Virus record (IMG/VR): IMGVR_UViG_2721755720_000005
From: a virus
Lineage: Duplodnaviria > Heunggongvirae > Uroviricota > Caudoviricetes
Length of the DNA: 40,305 bases
Direction: 5' to 3' (one strand)
Below, in pieces: positions 2,573-12,710 of this stretch. The notes beneath the pieces are model-generated. The model made no database searches. It had not been told where the DNA came from and was given only the letters and a program-made list of their open reading frames with translations. The position numbers and the translations under genes are program-made. Each line of letters starts with the position of its first letter. The stretch's first letter is position 1.

Positions 2573-3505
2573 ATGACCGATATAAACGATGTAATCAAGA
2601 CCATTGATGAACTTATTGATGGCGGCGTACTGACGCAGTATGCCATCGCCAGAGAGGCGGGAATTTCCGACGGCACATTATCGGCTTTCCGTAAGGGGAA
2701 ATATAAAGGCGATAACGCTGCTGTGGCTGCATCCCTGTGTTCCTGGTATGAGAACTGGAATAAACAAAGCGCACTGCCCGAGCCGCCGCAGTTTGTGGAA
2801 ACGCAGACAGTCCAGGAGCTGCGCGCACTGTTTCAGGCGGTTCGCCTGATGGGCTGTATTAACGTCATCGTGGGCGTACCGGGTGTGGGTAAAACGGCCA
2901 CGGCCCGTAATTACTGTCAGGAGCAACCGAACACCTGGATGATCACCCTGTCGCCTGCGCATTCCAGCGTCACGGAGTGTCTGCTGGAGCTGGCAGAGGA
3001 ACTGGGGATTGATTACACCCGCGCGAACAAAGGGGCATTATCCCGCGCAATCCGCCGTCGCCTGATGGGAACGCGTGGACTGGTGATTGTTGATGAGGCG
3101 GATCATCTTGGTATTGACGGTCTGGAGCAACTGCGGGCAATCCAGGACGCCACGGGGATCGGGATGGTGCTTATTGGTAACCCGCGCGGACTGTTTAAAG
3201 GTGGACGCCGCGCCGTTGATGATTTATCGCGCCTGTTCAGCCGTCTTGCCCGTACAAAACAACTTCGCAAGGCCAAAAAGGCGGATGTGCTGGCCATTGC
3301 CAGGGCATGGGGGATCAGTGGTGAGGCCGAGCTGGCCGTCATGCAGGCTATCGCTGAAAAACCGGGAGCATTACGTGTTCTGACGCATACGCTTAACCAG
3401 GCGTGGATCACCGCCAGTGGTGAAGGCGCTGTGCTGACAGAAAAACATATTAATGCGGCCTTTAAAGAGGTTTATACCAACCCTGAATTACTCTCACAGG
3501 TGTGA
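2573..3505 (+). CDS. B: Mu B-like AAA+ ATPase, transposition target DNA activator
   Basis: 310 aa; Walker A GVPGVGKT, Walker B-like VIVDEAD; N-terminal HTH; follows A. Confidence 0.9.
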   Translation: MTDINDVIKTIDELIDGGVLTQYAIAREAGISDGTLSAFRKGKYKGDNAAVAASLCSWYENWNKQSALPEPPQFVETQTVQELRALFQAVRLMGCINVIVGVPGVGKTATARNYCQEQPNTWMITLSPAHSSVTECLLELAEELGIDYTRANKGALSRAIRRRLMGTRGLVIVDEADHLGIDGLEQLRAIQDATGIGMVLIGNPRGLFKGGRRAVDDLSRLFSRLARTKQLRKAKKADVLAIARAWGISGEAELAVMQAIAEKPGALRVLTHTLNQAWITASGEGAVLTEKHINAAFKEVYTNPELLSQV

Positions 3506-8521: not shown

Positions 8522-8818
8522 ATGGACAGTAGTTCGCAGTTGTTCTGGTGTTTATATATCACATCGTTTTTCGGTGCATTCGTCATTACACGATGGCTGT
8601 GCCGGAAAGTTATCAGTATTTTTCATAAAAAATACCTGATTGGGCTGGCGGCGACTTCTCTGATTAATGCACTGGCCAGATATCATAAGGGGGAATGCTA
8701 CTCAAGAATAAAAACTGATGATGGTTTTAATATTTTTGTGATTCCTCCGGAGTATCGGGTTCAGCTCGATCGGGAAAATAATATCTATCATATCAGCAGG
8801 AGTGTTGATACAGCATGA
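8522..8818 (+). CDS. Small membrane protein, function unknown
   Basis: 98 aa; strong SD AAGGAG; hydrophobic N-terminal helix; locally AT-rich. Confidence 0.55.
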   Translation: MDSSSQLFWCLYITSFFGAFVITRWLCRKVISIFHKKYLIGLAATSLINALARYHKGECYSRIKTDDGFNIFVIPPEYRVQLDRENNIYHISRSVDTA

Positions 8819-9324
8819 GAGGGAAACTGATATCCGCTATTCATGTGGCAAAACGCGAGCTTGCTCTGGATGATGAGACCTACACATCCGTACTACTGGC
8901 AGCCATCGGCAAACCCAGTTGCCGTGATATGTCACCGGATGAGTTATCCCGCGTGCTGGATGTTTTCAAAAAACGCGGTTTTAAAGTGCGTCAGAAACCG
9001 GTTAACCGGGCGTTAAAACCGGGGACGGTGACCGCCAAAATTCGCGCCATCTGGAAGGTGATGCACCAGCAGGGATTTATCTCTGATGGCGGGGAAACGG
9101 CCCTTAACCGCTGGGTGAAATCGCAGACGGCCGCGCAGAACGGCGGCGAAGGTGTGGCTAACTGGCAGTGGCTGGAGCAACACCCCGCGCTGGCCTCTGA
9201 TGTGCTGGAGCGTCTCAAACGCTGGCACCGTCGCAAGATGCTGGATGCGCTGGGGATGTCAGCGCGTACAGTGATGAGTTATGAGCGCGTTTGCAGGCTG
9301 TATGAAGAATCCTCCCCCTTTTAA
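8815..9324 (+). CDS. gemA: GemA-like early regulatory protein (DUF1018 family)
   Basis: 169 aa; N-terminal KLISAIHVAKRELALDDETY pattern typical of GemA family; last early gene before a terminator. Confidence 0.75.
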   Translation: MRGKLISAIHVAKRELALDDETYTSVLLAAIGKPSCRDMSPDELSRVLDVFKKRGFKVRQKPVNRALKPGTVTAKIRAIWKVMHQQGFISDGGETALNRWVKSQTAAQNGGEGVANWQWLEQHPALASDVLERLKRWHRRKMLDALGMSARTVMSYERVCRLYEESSPF

Positions 9325-9328
9325 CCCC

Positions 9329-9360
9329 AAATCCCGCCACAGCGCGGGATTTTTATTTTA
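9329..9360 (+). terminator. Rho-independent terminator at the end of the early operon
   Basis: 9-bp stem AAATCCCGC/GCGGGATTT with 6-nt loop followed by TTTTTATTTT. Confidence 0.6.
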
Positions 9361-9394: not shown

Positions 9395-9817
9395 ATGGCT
9401 GAAACACAGATGAGCATGTTTGGTGACAGCGAACAGCTGCACGCGCTGATTGACCGTCTGGATGACATTCCTGATGATGAGCTGAAAAAGAACTGGCCCG
9501 GCACGCTGCGGGACCTGGTTGATGTGATCAGTGCTGAACTGCACCGTCAGGGGATTGAACCTGCTCAGGCGGGAATGCTTGCCCGTAAGGTTGCGGCCGC
9601 ACAGGCCGGGTACATGGGCGGGCGTGGTTATTATCTCCCGGTCGGTGAATCCCTTTTCACCGAACTGCGCAATAATGAGATTTTTTCCCGCTGGAGCCAG
9701 GGCGAAAAAATTGAAACCCTGCGCCGCCACTACCAGATGTCAGAGACGCAGATTTACTCCGTTATCCGTAACCAGCGCCGCCTGCATCAGGAACGCACGC
9801 AGCCCCGGCTTTTCTGA
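9395..9817 (+). CDS. Mor/C-family transcriptional activator (middle/late gene activator)
   Basis: 140 aa; SD GGAGG; C-terminal HTH; sits between the early terminator and the lysis genes. Confidence 0.8.
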   Translation: MAETQMSMFGDSEQLHALIDRLDDIPDDELKKNWPGTLRDLVDVISAELHRQGIEPAQAGMLARKVAAAQAGYMGGRGYYLPVGESLFTELRNNEIFSRWSQGEKIETLRRHYQMSETQIYSVIRNQRRLHQERTQPRLF

Positions 9818-9888
9818 TATTCCGCAAATCCTGCCCACTTTTTCCCACGGTTACGCTGACTCAGAGAACACCATGAGACAGCGTAACA

Positions 9889-10389
9889 ATGCCAAAACTC
9901 CCCGCGCCACTGCGTAAAAAGCTGATTGCCCTTGTCCTGGCCGGAGCCGGGACGTTCACCATTGCCACGCACTACACCGGCTACTGGGAAGGGAAAGGAA
10001 ACACCACGTATATTGATCCCACCGGCACCCCCACCATCTGTTACGGCCATACCGGCCCGGATGTGAAACCGGGGATGACAAAAACTGATGAAGAGTGTCT
10101 GGAGCTGCTGGAAAAGGACATGAAATGGGCCTTTGCGGCCATTGATCGTTATGTTCAGGTGCCGCTTACCCGTGGTCAGACGGTGGCGCTGGCCTCCTGG
10201 ATTTTCTGGGCCGGTGAAACGAACTTTCGCAACTCCACGCTCCTGCGCCTTATCAATGCCGGGCAGATGCCTGCGTCCTGTAAGCAGTATATCCGCTGGA
10301 TTTATTCAAAGGGGGTAAAACTCCCCGGTCTTGAGGCCCGCCGTTCGGCGGATGAATGGTTATGTCGTTACGATTTGCCGAAAGTCTGA
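9889..10389 (+). CDS. lys: SAR endolysin, glycoside hydrolase family 24 lysozyme
   Basis: 166 aa; N-terminal signal-anchor-release-like helix LIALVLAGAGTFTIA followed by E-x8-D-x5-T catalytic spacing. Confidence 0.9.
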   Translation: MPKLPAPLRKKLIALVLAGAGTFTIATHYTGYWEGKGNTTYIDPTGTPTICYGHTGPDVKPGMTKTDEECLELLEKDMKWAFAAIDRYVQVPLTRGQTVALASWIFWAGETNFRNSTLLRLINAGQMPASCKQYIRWIYSKGVKLPGLEARRSADEWLCRYDLPKV

Positions 10390-10483
10390 ACCGCTTCTGG
10401 CGACCGCTCATGATTGCGCTGCTGTGTGCTGTTGTGGTGCTGCGGGGTGTGCTGTGGCTGCGGTGAATAATCCCTTGCCGGCC

Positions 10484-10852
10484 ATGATTGCCGGAGGCTG
10501 TATGGCGGCGCTGGGAGTGATGAGCGTGCTGGCTGCCGTGGTATGGGGAATGCACCAGAAGACGCAGCGCCTTGAGGACAATAATCATGTGCTTGTGCGT
10601 GAACGGGACGAAGCCCGTCTGGTGCTGGCAAACCAGCAACGCACCCTGCAACTCATTTCACAAATCAGCAAGGCGGCCACGAATGAAAAACAGCAGAACA
10701 TGCAGCACAGCGAGGAACAGCAGAGCATTGTCCGCCGGTCGCTGGCAACGGTGCCTGCGGCCTCTGTTCCTGTGCCTGATGATGTGGCTGACCGGGTGCG
10801 GCGGGCCGTCTGTGAAATACGTGCCGGTGAAGCCGGTGCCGATCCCCGCTGA
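10484..10852 (+). CDS. i-spanin (Rz-like)
   Basis: N-terminal TM helix then coiled-coil-rich periplasmic region; start within ORF 10331-10852 chosen at ATG 10484. Confidence 0.6.
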   Translation: MIAGGCMAALGVMSVLAAVVWGMHQKTQRLEDNNHVLVRERDEARLVLANQQRTLQLISQISKAATNEKQQNMQHSEEQQSIVRRSLATVPAASVPVPDDVADRVRRAVCEIRAGEAGADPR

Positions 10853-11054
10853 ATGGCTGGCTGACTGCCTGGTCCCTCCTGTGCCGCAGCCGTTCACGTT
10901 TGGCGCATCGGTCACTTACAACCTGCAACTGCTGGCGGTGATTAAGAACTGCAACGTGGACAAGGCCAGCATCCGCCGTCTGGAGGCACAGCGACAGCAT
11001 GAATTTACTGATATGGCCGGAACGACTGCTGTTCCGGCAGGAAAGACAAAGTAA
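10683..11054 (+). CDS. o-spanin (Rz1-like outer-membrane lipoprotein), overlapped with the i-spanin in another frame
   Basis: Lipobox L-T-G-C followed by proline-rich segment; start within ORF 10572-11054 uncertain. Confidence 0.6.
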   Translation: MKNSRTCSTARNSRALSAGRWQRCLRPLFLCLMMWLTGCGGPSVKYVPVKPVPIPAEWLADCLVPPVPQPFTFGASVTYNLQLLAVIKNCNVDKASIRRLEAQRQHEFTDMAGTTAVPAGKTK

Positions 11055-11064
11055 GGAAAAAGGT

Positions 11065-11292
11065 ATGGATGATTCAGATTGTGCTCAGGCAGTCATGGAG
11101 CGGGCAACAGAACGCGCCTTTTGTGACCGGCTGACACGTAAGCGCCGGGTGGTGGAAACACCGGGCAGGCGTGTATGCGCGGACTGCGGGGGTGACATTC
11201 CGGCCGCCCGTCTGGTTGCTGTGCCGGATGCCATCCGTTGTGTGAACTGCCAGAACATCATGGAGGCCGGTCATGTGGGTCAGCATCGTTAA
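11065..11292 (+). CDS. TraR/DksA-family C4 zinc-finger protein
   Basis: CADC-x17-CVNC zinc-finger spacing; ATG 11065 preceded by AAGGAAAAAGG. Confidence 0.7.
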   Translation: MDDSDCAQAVMERATERAFCDRLTRKRRVVETPGRRVCADCGGDIPAARLVAVPDAIRCVNCQNIMEAGHVGQHR

Positions 11293-11584
11293 AGATTATG
11301 TCGTGCCGATCCTGTCGGCAACGGCCACGGCCGGGGGGATCTTTATGGCGCTGATGCGCAAAACCTTTGTCCCCCGCGAGGCCTTTGAAAAACTCTCCGA
11401 CCGGGTTGAGCGGGTGGAGAGCAGGATTTCCGGCCTGCCCACGCAGCAGGAGGTGAACAGACTCAATATCGAAATCACCACCCTGCGCGGTGAGCTTAAG
11501 GCCACCAATGCCACCCTGAAATCCGTCTCCCACCAGAACGAACTGCTGCTGGAGCAGGCTGTAAGGAAAAAACACAATGAGTGA
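11273..11584 (+). CDS. Small membrane/coiled-coil protein, possible lysis accessory (releasin-like by position)
   Basis: 103 aa; N-terminal hydrophobic helix then coiled coil; SD GGAGG. Confidence 0.55.
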   Translation: MWVSIVKDYVVPILSATATAGGIFMALMRKTFVPREAFEKLSDRVERVESRISGLPTQQEVNRLNIEITTLRGELKATNATLKSVSHQNELLLEQAVRKKHNE

Positions 11585-11869: not shown

Positions 11870-12451
11870 ATGGATAAGCCAACGCGTGGCCGTGTACGCA
11901 AGGTGGATTTGCTCCCCGACAGCATCCGTAAGCCGCTGCTGGAAATGCTGCGTGAAAAACGTCTGACGCAGGTCCAGATCCGCGAGGAAATCAACCGTCT
12001 GATCCGTGAGGCAGGACTGCCGGAAGAGCAGCAGCTTTCACCGGCGGCCATCAGCCGGGAAGCCTCCCGTAATGAGCTGATTGCCCGTAACCTGCGTGAT
12101 TTGCGCGAGCAGACAAAAGCCATGATGGCCGAACTGGGGGACAAGCCAACCGGTGAAACCACGGCACTGATTCTGGAAATGTCCCGCGCCCTGATGTACC
12201 GCCGCCTGCGTGCTGCCACCGAATCCCTGAACAGCGACAGCGACGTGGATATGCGCCTCATCAAGGACATACTCCTGTCGGCACAGCGTGCGGAAAGCGC
12301 CGCCGAGCGCAGCATTAAGCGTGAAAAAGAAATCCGGGCCGCATTTGCTGAAGAGATGGCGAACGCGGTCACCGACGAGTTGCGTGGCGTGGATGGCATG
12401 AGCGAGCAGATAGAATTCCGTATCAGGCAGATGCTGCTTGGTAAGGCGTAG
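11870..12451 (+). CDS. Mu gp27-like protein (putative terminase small subunit / DNA-binding packaging protein)
   Basis: 193 aa; SD AGGGGG; positioned before the large terminase; helical, charged. Confidence 0.7.
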   Translation: MDKPTRGRVRKVDLLPDSIRKPLLEMLREKRLTQVQIREEINRLIREAGLPEEQQLSPAAISREASRNELIARNLRDLREQTKAMMAELGDKPTGETTALILEMSRALMYRRLRAATESLNSDSDVDMRLIKDILLSAQRAESAAERSIKREKEIRAAFAEEMANAVTDELRGVDGMSEQIEFRIRQMLLGKA

Positions 12452-12461
12452 GAGGTGAATA

Positions 12462-12710
12462 ATGGAAAAGAATATCAGGGCGCTAATAATCAGCGCCCGG
12501 CATGAAGCATTCAATCTTGCAACACAGTTACCTCCTGAAACCATAAAAGCGTGTCGTGAGTTGACTGAACTCAGCATTGCCGGGGAAATATCCCTGGAAC
12601 AACTGCATTTGCTGCTGGCAGGGGCTGTCACTGATGAATTGAGCAGCGTGGACGTGATGACTGAAGAGCTTGAGTCCAGAATCAGGGGCATTCTGACAGG
12701 TAAAGCATGA
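12462..12710 (+). CDS. Small protein whose C-terminus duplicates the C-terminus of the preceding gp27-like protein
   Basis: 82 aa; strong SD GGAGGTG; C-terminal AVTDELSSVDVMTEELESRIRGILTGKA parallels AVTDELRGVDGMSEQIEFRIRQMLLGKA. Confidence 0.6.
   Translation: MEKNIRALIISARHEAFNLATQLPPETIKACRELTELSIAGEISLEQLHLLLAGAVTDELSSVDVMTEELESRIRGILTGKA

What the first reader, a model, noticed from the sequence alone, without database searches (positions are those of the whole stretch)
9889..11584. Lysis module: SAR endolysin, overlapped spanin pair, no obvious holin
The endolysin has a signal-anchor-release-type N-terminal helix and the GH24 catalytic spacing. The following i-spanin (TM plus coiled coil) and o-spanin (lipobox LTGC, Pro-rich) overlap in different frames. 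No canonical multi-TM holin is present; a small TM plus coiled-coil protein at 11273-11584 occupies the position of the Mu releasin gene. An 18-codon TM-like mini-ORF (10410-10466) sits between lysozyme and spanin.
Basis: partly seen in the sequence, partly recalled or inferred. Interest (0 to 1): 0.5.

Follow-up and report, generated by a model that had tools for sequence, protein, structure and literature searches.

The report
Mu-type holin-less phage lysis module
This is the cell-bursting gene set of a Mu-like prophage of E. coli, built like that of phage Mu (membrane-tethered lysozyme, two-part spanin, "releasin", no holin), so it is largely ordinary, except for a conserved and never-annotated 34-36-codon membrane-peptide gene wedged between the lysozyme and the spanin.

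Summary
The window is a complete Mu-like prophage, running from MuA/MuB to Mom. Positions 9889-11584 carry homologues of Mu genes 22-25 in Mu order:
- a GH24 lysozyme collinear with the phage 21 and Mu SAR endolysins (E34-x8-D43-x5-T49, Gly/Ala/Thr-rich N-terminal helix, conserved R9-K10-K11);
- an i-spanin (10454-10852) overlapped for 170 nt by an o-spanin (10683-11054, lipobox LTGC);
- a TraR/DksA zinc-finger gene;
- a full-length DUF2730 protein, 34% identical to the Mu releasin gp25.

No multi-TM holin candidate exists among the forward-strand phage genes. This is therefore a new member of the holin-less SAR-endolysin/releasin system described for Mu in 2022. About 4% of complete E. coli genomes carry it.

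It overlaps the end of the lysozyme gene and the first 13 nt of the i-spanin gene. It is intact and of identical length in Escherichia, Salmonella/Citrobacter and Serratia relatives. Among closer relatives it shows purifying selection in its own frame. Mu lacks it, and it appears in no annotation or protein database. It may be a lysis factor or only a translational-coupling bridge; this is untested.

The parts
9395..9817 (+). Mor/C-family late transcription activator. It is the only family member in the prophage and sits directly upstream of the lysis cassette.
   Evidence: Pfam Mor 6.7e-31. 40% identical to Mu C and 28% to Mu Mor.
9818..9888 (+). Intergenic region, presumed C-dependent late (Plys-like) promoter and endolysin ribosome-binding region. 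This is inferred only.
   Evidence: Same position as Mu Plys. Patchy similarity in the alignment, TTACGCTGAC...TCAGAGAA. No sigma-70 consensus found, as expected for an activator-dependent promoter.
9889..10389 (+). SAR-type GH24 endolysin, 166 aa. Cytoplasmic tail M1-K11 carries K3, R9, K10 and K11. SAR helix is about L12-Y32. Catalytic residues are E34, D43 and T49.
10356..10466 (+). Conserved, unannotated mini-ORF of 36 codons from ATG 10356. The likely start is the conserved ATG 10362, giving 34 aa: MSLRFAESLNRFWRPLMIALLCAVVVLRGVLWLR. It has a basic N-terminus followed by one TM-like segment (W15-W34). It overlaps the 3' end of lys by 28-34 nt and the 5' end of the i-spanin gene by 13 nt.
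   Evidence: No family or database match.
10454..10852 (+). i-spanin, 132 aa, GTG start. N-terminal TMD is about I12-M33, followed by long periplasmic helices.
   Evidence: PHROG 214 Rz-like spanin 4.5e-30. 25% identical to Mu gp23. Start fixed by homologues. AlphaFold helices 8-98 and 109-128.
10683..11054 (+). o-spanin, 123 aa precursor. Lipobox L36-T-G-C39, Gly at +2, Pro-rich mature N-terminal part. It lies in the +1 frame over the last 170 nt of the i-spanin gene.
   Evidence: Pfam LysC 7.9e-17 for the 123-aa protein (1.2e-16 for the longer ORF). 41% identical to Mu gp23.1. The ATG and the lipobox L[TI][GA]C are conserved in three clades.
11065..11292 (+). TraR/DksA-type C4 zinc-finger protein, 75 aa, at the position of Mu gene 24. 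No known role in lysis.
   Evidence: Pfam zf-dskA_traR 4e-12. TIGR02419 4.1e-19. Only weak CxxC...CxxC similarity to Mu gp24.
11273..11584 (+). Releasin homologue, a DUF2730 protein of 103 aa. N-terminal TMD is about Y9-M28, with R29-K30 at the membrane/cytoplasm junction, followed by a helical cytoplasmic domain.
   Evidence: Pfam PF10805 1.2e-22, 80.4 bits against a cutoff of 24.9, covering residues 6-97. 34% identical to Mu gp25. AlphaFold helices 3-30, 35-53 and 58-102.

Best explanation
This is the late lysis cassette of a Mu-like transposable prophage. It most likely works as shown experimentally for phage Mu by Chamblee et al. 2022.

1. A C-like activator turns on a late promoter upstream of lys.
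2. A chain of overlapping, translationally coupled genes is then expressed.
3. The lysozyme is exported by Sec but stays tethered and inactive in the inner membrane through its weakly hydrophobic N-terminal SAR helix. A cluster of cytoplasmic basic residues (K3, R9, K10, K11) locks it there.
4. The DUF2730 releasin, an N-out/C-in membrane protein, promotes exit of that helix from the bilayer. The enzyme refolds and degrades the cell wall.
5. The i-spanin/o-spanin complex, which spans the periplasm, then fuses the inner and outer membranes.

No holin takes part, so timing is set at the level of endolysin release.

What is shown here: the homology, anatomy, gene order and conservation of every part. 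What is inferred from Mu and phage 21: SAR behaviour, dependence on the releasin, spanin function and the absence of a holin.

The extra 34-36-codon ORF between lys and the i-spanin gene is probably translated. It probably yields a small single-pass membrane peptide and delivers ribosomes to the weak GTG start of the i-spanin gene. Whether the peptide itself acts in lysis is unknown.
For: Context:
- The window is a whole Mu-like prophage: MuA, MuB, GemA, a Mor/C-family gene, gp27 TerS, baseplate J and Mom.
- The gene order lys, i-spanin, o-spanin, gene 24 position, DUF2730, gp26-like, TerS, TerL equals Mu genes 22-28.

Endolysin:
- Phage_lysozyme 3.3e-36, 39% identical to Mu gp22, triad aligned.
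- Collinear with phage 21 R (3HDE), including the N-terminal PxLRK and Gly/Ala-rich helix.
- Helix composition is 52% G/A/S/T, against 55% in Mu.
- The basic cluster is conserved in three clades.

Spanins.

Releasin:
- DUF2730 over its full length, with TMD and RK junction motif, 34% identical to gp25.
- The Mu experiments and the features that define the system are in PMC9239132.

Holin: no multi-TM ORF among the phage genes.

The cassette is intact and conserved. It is present in 230 of 5426 complete E. coli genomes and in Salmonella, Citrobacter and Serratia prophages.

Mini-ORF:
- Same length and intact in all relatives.
- pN/pS of 0.15-0.46 in its own frame for closer pairs (p = 0.004-0.05), against more than 1.6 in the i-spanin frame.
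- The lysozyme Leu codon that creates its ATG is TTA or CTA in 27 of 28 distinct intact sequences, although NTA codons make up only 7% of Leu codons in neighbouring genes.
Against: - No experiment exists for this phage.
- SAR behaviour versus cleavage by signal peptidase cannot be decided from sequence. Small residues at -3/-1 positions exist (A18-G-A20, T24-I-A26).
- The basic residues sit at positions 9-11, not 6-7 as in Mu, where K9 was irrelevant to releasin dependence. Dependence on the releasin is therefore not guaranteed.
- The releasin cytoplasmic domain here has a net charge of +3, whereas Mu gp25 is slightly acidic. This weakens the charge-neutralisation model.
- DUF2730 proteins also occur with non-SAR endolysins, so family membership does not prove the function.
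- For the mini-ORF: the codon-position test is not significant (p = 0.2). pN/pS approaches 0.8-0.9 between E. coli and Serratia. Its conserved C-terminus (RGVLWL) overlaps the i-spanin Shine-Dalgarno and start region, so nucleotide-level constraint could explain that part.
Confidence: 0.8

Rival explanations
1. The mini-ORF peptide, or another small membrane protein such as the 98-aa product of 8522-8818, acts as an unconventional single-TMD holin or pinholin. Under this reading the module is not holin-less.
For: The mini-ORF lies inside the late lysis cassette, directly after a SAR endolysin, where pinholin or antiholin genes are often found. It encodes a TM-like segment with a 19-residue Kyte-Doolittle score of 2.35. 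It is conserved in three clades. Small TM proteins outside the classical classes can be essential for lysis, as with Lcc6 of LambdaSo, 65 aa.
Against: To my knowledge, 34-36 aa with one TMD interrupted by an Arg is smaller than any characterised holin. There is no match to any holin family in Pfam or PHROGs. Mu lyses without a holin using the same endolysin/releasin pair. 8522-8818 lies in the early region upstream of gemA and is only weakly hydrophobic, 1.43.
Confidence: 0.08
2. The mini-ORF is not a functional gene product. It is either a relic of the 5' end of a replaced i-spanin gene or merely a translated bridge. In the second case only its reading through to the i-spanin start matters, through termination-reinitiation coupling, and the peptide has no role of its own.
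For: Its position and its overlap with the end of lys are exactly where Mu gene 23 starts. Residues 11-36 resemble the N-terminal TMD of the Rz-like i-spanins of phages Vi II-E1 and Bas77-79, YWRPLAIIIIVVASVLWVR (pairwise E 1e-6). The i-spanin has a GTG start in the E. coli clade. The mini-ORF stop overlaps that start by 13 nt in all clades. Amino-acid constraint is weak at greater divergence. The codon-position test is not significant.
Against: pN/pS is 0.15-0.46 in its frame among closer relatives. W-R-P-x-M is invariant despite synonymous changes (CGA/CGG, CCG/CCT), and hydrophobicity is retained in all clades. The resemblance to i-spanin N-termini is not significant at database scale: tblastn E 2-8, and phmmer found no true hit among 1.84 billion proteins.
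Confidence: 0.4
3. The lysozyme carries an ordinary cleavable Sec signal peptide and is secreted in active form. The DUF2730 protein would then have a role unrelated to endolysin release.
For: The n-region, h-region and small-residue pattern of the N-terminus is compatible with signal peptidase I sites (read directly from the sequence). DUF2730 proteins also accompany endolysins that lack SAR domains.
Against: The protein is collinear with phage 21 R and Mu gp22, both experimentally SAR endolysins, including the N-terminal helix. The catalytic Glu lies only 2 residues after the helix, as in those enzymes. An unregulated secreted lysozyme would lyse the cell as soon as late genes are expressed.
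Confidence: 0.06

Closest known systems
Phage Mu lysis cassette: gp22 SAR endolysin, gp23/gp23.1 spanins, gp24, gp25 releasin (Chamblee et al. 2022, mBio, PMC9239132)
   Same: Same gene order, in the same position between the C-type activator and the terminase genes. Endolysin 39%, i-spanin 25%, o-spanin 41% and releasin 34% identical. Overlapped spanin architecture with lipobox LTGC. [quoted passage not shown] No holin-like multi-TM protein in the late cassette.
   Different: An extra conserved 34-36-codon TM-peptide ORF lies between the endolysin and i-spanin genes, where Mu gene 23 overlaps gene 22 directly. The basic residues of the endolysin tail are at positions 3 and 9-11 rather than 6, 7 and 9. 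The SAR helix has 3 Gly (within L12-A26), where Mu gp22 has a run of six Gly in seven positions. The releasin cytoplasmic domain has a net positive charge. The gene 24 position holds a clear TraR/DksA zinc finger. The middle-operon TM proteins gp19 and gp20, and a separate Mor, are absent.
Phage 21 R (R21) SAR endolysin with the S21 pinholin; E. coli DLP12 RrrD
   Same: Closest solved structures (3HDE, 4ZPU). The alignment covers residues 5-161, including the PxLRK motif, the Gly/Ala-rich SAR helix and the E-D-T triad.
   Different: Phage 21 uses a two-TMD pinholin to trigger release. No pinholin gene is present here, and a releasin homologue is present instead.
Overlapped two-component spanins of the P2 LysB/LysC type (Pfam LysC PF23793; DUF2570 PF10828)
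   Same: The o-spanin matches the LysC model at 7.9e-17. Database relatives of the i-spanin carry PF10828. The o-spanin gene starts inside the i-spanin gene and extends beyond it.
   Different: Sequence identity to characterised spanins is low (25-41% to Mu). The o-spanin signal peptide has an unusually long basic n-region, with Cys at position 39.
Lcc6 of Shewanella phage LambdaSo, a 65-aa single-TMD accessory lysis factor (bioRxiv 10.1101/2024.01.23.576932)
   Same: It is a precedent for a small, family-less, single-TMD phage protein being required for lysis driven by a SAR endolysin. It is only a functional analogy for the mini-ORF.
   Different: No sequence similarity was tested or is expected. 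Lcc6 is twice as long, is encoded far from the lysis genes, and works with a pinholin.

Membership tests
SAR endolysin (GH24, phage 21 R / Mu gp22 type) | GH24/T4-type lysozyme domain with the E-x8-D-x5-T catalytic triad | tested here: met
   Pfam PF00959 at 3.3e-36. E34, D43 and T49 align with Mu E37, D46 and T52 and with phage 21 R.
SAR endolysin (GH24, phage 21 R / Mu gp22 type) | N-terminal weakly hydrophobic TMD rich in Gly/Ala/Ser/Thr, preceded by basic residues | tested here: met
   Residues 12-32 are 52% G/A/S/T. The best 19-residue hydropathy score is 1.39, against 2.2-2.35 for the true TMDs nearby. K3, R9, K10 and K11 lie upstream. The feature is conserved in three clades.
SAR endolysin (GH24, phage 21 R / Mu gp22 type) | Not cleaved by signal peptidase; membrane-tethered and inactive, then released, for example by a pinholin or depolarisation | not testable with these tools
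   No signal-peptide predictor or experiment was available. Small residues compatible with cleavage exist, so sequence alone is inconclusive.
Releasin (DUF2730, Mu gp25 type I) | Full-length match to Pfam PF10805 above the gathering score | tested here: met
   80.4 bits against a cutoff of 24.9, residues 6-97 of 103. Database relatives are all PF10805.
Releasin (DUF2730, Mu gp25 type I) | Significant sequence similarity to Mu gp25 itself (type I of the three DUF2730 groups) | tested here: met
   tblastn E 5e-10, 33% identity over 91% of the protein. 34% identity in the MAFFT alignment.
Releasin (DUF2730, Mu gp25 type I) | N-terminal TMD with N-out/C-in topology and an RR/RK motif at the cytoplasmic junction | tested here: met
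   TMD at about residues 9-28 (hydropathy 1.8), followed by R29-K30. AlphaFold helix 3-30. The topology follows from the positive-inside rule and is an inference.
Releasin (DUF2730, Mu gp25 type I) | Encoded within five genes downstream of the endolysin in a transposable phage | tested here: met
   It is the fifth ORF after lys, or the fourth without the mini-ORF, in a prophage carrying MuA, MuB, GemA and Mom.
Releasin (DUF2730, Mu gp25 type I) | Required for release and activation of the cognate SAR endolysin | not testable with these tools
   This needs a deletion or co-expression experiment.
Two-component spanin (overlapped architecture) | [quoted passage not shown] | tested here: met
   TMD hydropathy 2.22. 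AlphaFold helices 8-98 and 109-128, mean pLDDT 79.8. PHROG 214 at 4.5e-30.
Two-component spanin (overlapped architecture) | o-spanin: small outer-membrane lipoprotein with a lipobox Cys, no Asp at +2, and a Pro-rich sequence | tested here: met
   L-T-G-C39, Gly at +2, 10 Pro in 85 mature residues. The lipobox is conserved as L[TI][GA]C in three clades. Pfam LysC at 7.9e-17. Lipidation itself was not tested.
Two-component spanin (overlapped architecture) | The o-spanin gene starts within the i-spanin gene in another frame and ends beyond it | tested here: met
   10683-11054 against 10454-10852, a 170-nt overlap in the +1 frame.
Holin (classes I-III, pinholin) | A small protein with one to four TMDs in the late lysis cassette that forms lethal membrane lesions when the membrane is depolarised | tested here: not met
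   No ORF with two or more TMDs exists among the forward-strand phage genes. The single-TMD proteins are the i-spanin, the releasin homologue and the 36-aa mini-ORF, and none matches a holin family. Functional triggering could not be tested.

The most novel reading that the evidence does not exclude
The conserved 34-36-aa peptide encoded at 10356/10362-10466 is a genuine fifth component of the holin-less lysis system. [quoted passage not shown] That would make it a new class of lysis regulator that gene callers systematically miss.
Probability: 0.25. Interest if true: 0.6.

Novelty: new member of a known kind. Interest (0 to 1): 0.33.

Why it matters
The module shows that the Mu-type holin-less strategy (SAR endolysin plus releasin) is common in enterobacterial genomes. 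It is present in 230 of 5426 complete E. coli genomes, including O157:H7 strains among the listed hits, and in Salmonella, Citrobacter and Serratia.

It also supplies natural variants for probing how releasins work. The basic residues of the endolysin tail sit at different positions, the SAR helix is poor in Gly, and the releasin is positively charged.

The unannotated mini-ORF is a cheap, testable candidate for an extra lysis or coupling factor.

In practical terms, the analysis exposes systematic RefSeq mis-annotation of this cassette. The i-spanin starts are inconsistent, the o-spanin is truncated before its lipobox, and the mini-ORF is missing.

Tried and rejected
- Frameshifted i-spanin N-terminus. 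I asked whether the mini-ORF is the frameshifted N-terminus of the i-spanin, from an indel in this lineage. Rejected: alignments with relatives show no indels, and the i-spanin has its own TMD and a conserved start.
- Programmed -1 frameshift fusing the mini-ORF to the i-spanin. Rejected: there is no slippery heptamer, and a two-TMD product would place the spanin domain in the cytoplasm.
- Tandem duplicate of the i-spanin TMD. Rejected: BLASTP E = 20 or no alignment, and only a 14-nt DNA repeat.
- Homologue of Mu gp20, a 39-aa TM protein. The sequences look unrelated by eye, and gp20 is a middle-operon gene. No formal comparison was run.
- Lambda-S-like dual start (M1-V2-M3). Rejected: there is no charged residue between the two Met codons, and codon 1 varies between ATG and GTG with the synonymous Glu codon of lys.
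- Database searches for the peptide found nothing meaningful.
- Three collection scans were wasted on patterns with miscounted Ns. The corrected pattern recovered only the same three clades.
- A Foldseek search of the releasin model against the PDB gave no match.
- The genome-contig scan with the endolysin gave only one locus, from Citrobacter braakii.
Full report
**What the window is.** The 40.3-kb window is a complete Mu-like transposable prophage followed by a host type I restriction gene. Pfam identifies the following:
- MuA transposase, 410-2497
- MuB, 2573-3505
- GemA, 8815-9324
- a Mor/C-family activator, 9395-9817
- gp27-type small terminase, 11870-12451
- baseplate J, 29798-30880
- Mom, 36811-37794
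- HsdR, 37888 onward

Close copies at 80-98% nucleotide identity occur in 230 of 5426 complete E. coli genomes. They also occur as the "inserted Mu-like phage" in two Stx-phage records.

**Checking the observation.**
- The 166-aa product of 9889-10389 matches Pfam Phage_lysozyme at 3.3e-36 and PHROG endolysin at 4.4e-51.
- It is 39% identical to Mu gp22. E34, D43 and T49 align with the Mu catalytic E37, D46 and T52.
- Its closest solved relative is the phage 21 R SAR endolysin (3HDE, E 1.2e-25). That alignment starts at residue 5 and therefore includes the PxLRK motif and the Gly/Ala-rich helix.
- Residues 12-32 are 52% Gly/Ala/Ser/Thr. Their best 19-residue hydropathy is 1.39, against 2.2-2.35 for the true TMDs next door, which is similar to Mu gp22.
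- The basic cluster R9-K10-K/R11 is conserved in Escherichia, Salmonella/Citrobacter and Serratia relatives.

**Spanins.** The mechanical ORFs are longer than the genes.
- Comparison with relatives places the i-spanin start at GTG 10454. Salmonella, Citrobacter and Serratia have ATG at the homologous codon, and gene callers start there, 65 nt after the lys stop.
- The 132-aa protein has an N-terminal TMD (hydropathy 2.22) and matches PHROG 214 Rz-like spanin at 4.5e-30. It is 25% identical to Mu gp23.
- AlphaFold models it as one helix from 8-98 and a second from 109-128.
- The o-spanin starts at ATG 10683, which is conserved in all clades. It has lipobox L-T-G-C39, Gly at +2 and 9 Pro in the first 35 mature residues.
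- It matches Pfam LysC at about 1e-16 and is 41% identical to Mu gp23.1.
- It overlaps the i-spanin gene by 170 nt in another frame, the "overlapped" architecture also seen in Mu.

**Releasin homologue.**
- 11273-11584 encodes 103 aa that match Pfam DUF2730 over their whole length (1.2e-22, 80.4 bits against a cutoff of 24.9).
- The protein is 33-34% identical to Mu gp25, which GenBank AF083977 now annotates as "releasin".
- It has the N-terminal TMD, the R-K pair at the membrane/cytoplasm junction and a helical cytoplasmic domain.
- Chamblee et al. (PMC9239132) showed that Mu gp22 is a SAR endolysin locked in the membrane by basic residues of its cytoplasmic tail. They also showed that gp25 is required for its release, that gp23 and gp23.1 are the spanins, and that Mu has no holin.
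- The gene order here equals Mu 22-23-23.1-24-25-26-27-28.

**Absence of a holin.**
- A Kyte-Doolittle scan of all ORFs of 30 aa or more on both strands found no protein with two or more TMDs among the forward-strand phage genes.
- The only membrane proteins are the i-spanin, the releasin homologue, the mini-ORF peptide and the weak SAR helix.
- Mu's middle-operon TM proteins gp19 and gp20 have no counterpart. Only one Mor/C-family gene is present, and it is closer to C (40%) than to Mor (28%).
- A 98-aa early-region protein (8522-8818) is weakly hydrophobic. It lies upstream of gemA, not in the late cassette.

**The mini-ORF.**
- It overlaps the last 28-34 nt of lys and the first 13 nt of the i-spanin gene.
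- It is not annotated in RefSeq relatives.
- Exact look-up finds none of seven variants among about 15 billion predicted proteins.
- Pfam and PHROGs give nothing.
- A full phmmer scan of 1.84 billion representatives found only a spurious repeat protein.

Yet the ORF is intact, with identical length and overlap geometry, in every relative recovered. That is 29 distinct sequences from IMG/VR, metagenomes and genomes, falling into three clades:
- Escherichia: MVMSLRFAESLNRFWRPLMIALLCAVVVLRGVLWLR
- Salmonella/Citrobacter: MVMPLRLTAVLVRYWRPVMVSVLCAVLLLRGVLWLA
- Serratia: MVMSERFADAVNRLWRPAMLAALGGVIVLRGVLWLI

.

Evidence that the frame is under selection:
- In the part free of overlaps, Nei-Gojobori pN/pS in the mini-ORF frame is 0.15 (p = 0.007), 0.30 (p = 0.004) and 0.46 (p = 0.048) for closer pairs. 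It is always above 1.6 in the i-spanin frame, so the upstream extension of the i-spanin ORF is not coding.
- W-R-P-x-M is invariant despite synonymous changes.
- The lysozyme Leu codon whose third base makes ATG 10362 is TTA or CTA in 27 of 28 distinct intact sequences, and TTG (giving GTG) in one. NTA codons are only 7% of Leu codons in seven neighbouring genes.

Caveats:
- The codon-position test is not significant (p = 0.2).
- pN/pS rises to 0.8-0.9 between E. coli and Serratia.
- The conserved C-terminus coincides with the i-spanin Shine-Dalgarno and start region.
- The sequences are phylogenetically related, so the counts are not independent.

Mu itself and four other Mu-type loci have no such ORF. 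Residues 11-36 loosely resemble the N-terminal TMD of the Rz-like i-spanins of phages Vi II-E1 and Bas77-79 (pairwise E 1e-6, but tblastn E 2-8). This suggests, without demonstrating, that the ORF is a relic of a displaced i-spanin 5' end. Hypotheses involving duplication or a frameshift fusion with the present i-spanin were rejected.

**Most likely mechanism.**
1. The C-like activator drives a Plys-like promoter in 9818-9888 (inferred from position).
2. The cassette is a chain of overlapping or abutting genes, consistent with translational coupling:
   - lys / mini-ORF: 28-34 nt overlap
   - mini-ORF / i-spanin: 13 nt overlap
   - i-spanin / o-spanin: 170 nt overlap
   - o-spanin / TraR-like gene: 10 nt gap
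   - TraR-like gene / releasin: 20 nt overlap
   - releasin / gp26-like gene: 8 nt overlap
3. The lysozyme is exported and held inactive by its SAR helix and basic tail.
4. The releasin promotes its escape, and the wall is degraded.
5. The spanin complex then fuses the membranes.

These functional steps are inferred from Mu and phage 21. The homology, anatomy and conservation are shown here. The mini-ORF probably at least delivers ribosomes to the weak GTG start of the i-spanin gene. A role for the peptide itself is possible, with Lcc6 of LambdaSo as a precedent for an accessory micro-protein.

**Differences from Mu that bear on mechanism.**
- The tail's basic residues lie at positions 3 and 9-11, whereas in Mu K6 and K7 mattered and K9 did not.
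- The SAR helix has few Gly.
- The releasin cytoplasmic domain has a net charge of +3 rather than about -1.
- The gene 24 position holds a clear TraR/DksA zinc finger.

**Verdict.** The finding is correct and well interpreted. The system was described for Mu in 2022, so this is a new member of a known kind and of modest interest. The one new item is the conserved, unannotated micro-ORF, which deserves a simple genetic test.

Noticed in passing
window 10331-11054; L002 3703-4255; L003 2116-2746: RefSeq/PGAP annotation of this cassette in related E. coli genomes is inconsistent. The i-spanin is started at non-homologous codons (an ATG equivalent to 10502 in one genome, a GTG equivalent to 10424 in another). 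The o-spanin 'lysC' is started downstream of its lipobox, so the annotated protein lacks its lipoprotein signal.
   Followed up: partly
window 9395-9817: Only one Mor/C-family regulator is present. It is 40% identical to Mu C and 28% to Mor. It lies directly between gemA and lys. Mu's Mor plus genes 18-20 have no counterpart. Salmonella and Serratia relatives share this layout, which suggests a simpler transcription cascade than in Mu.
   Followed up: partly
window 12462-12710: An 82-aa ORF lies between the small and large terminase genes. Its last 31 residues are 61% identical to the C-terminus of the small terminase gp27 (E 4e-10). It is present in L002 but absent from L003.
   Followed up: partly
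window 33170-35239: A cargo-like gene encodes a 689-aa protein with a SASA sialate-O-acetylesterase domain and DUF6645. It lies between the tail-fibre assembly gene (32344-32916, minus strand) and mom.
   Followed up: no
L028 / L052 (IMGVR_UViG_2526164665_000023), equivalent to window ~10378-10384: One extra A in the run CCGAAAG at the end of lys puts the lysozyme in frame with the mini-ORF. The predicted endolysin would then carry a C-terminal TM segment. This may be a homopolymer sequencing error or a natural variant.
   Followed up: no
window 8522-8818: A 98-aa early-region protein matches PHROG 17269 (unknown function, E 3e-67). It has a weakly hydrophobic N-terminal segment (hydropathy 1.43). 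Apart from the lysis cassette, it is the only membrane-protein-like forward-strand gene in the prophage.
   Followed up: no
window 9329-9352: A strong terminator-like hairpin (9-bp stem, T-rich tail) lies between gemA and the C-like activator gene. Its position is analogous to the terminators annotated around Mu's middle promoter.
   Followed up: no
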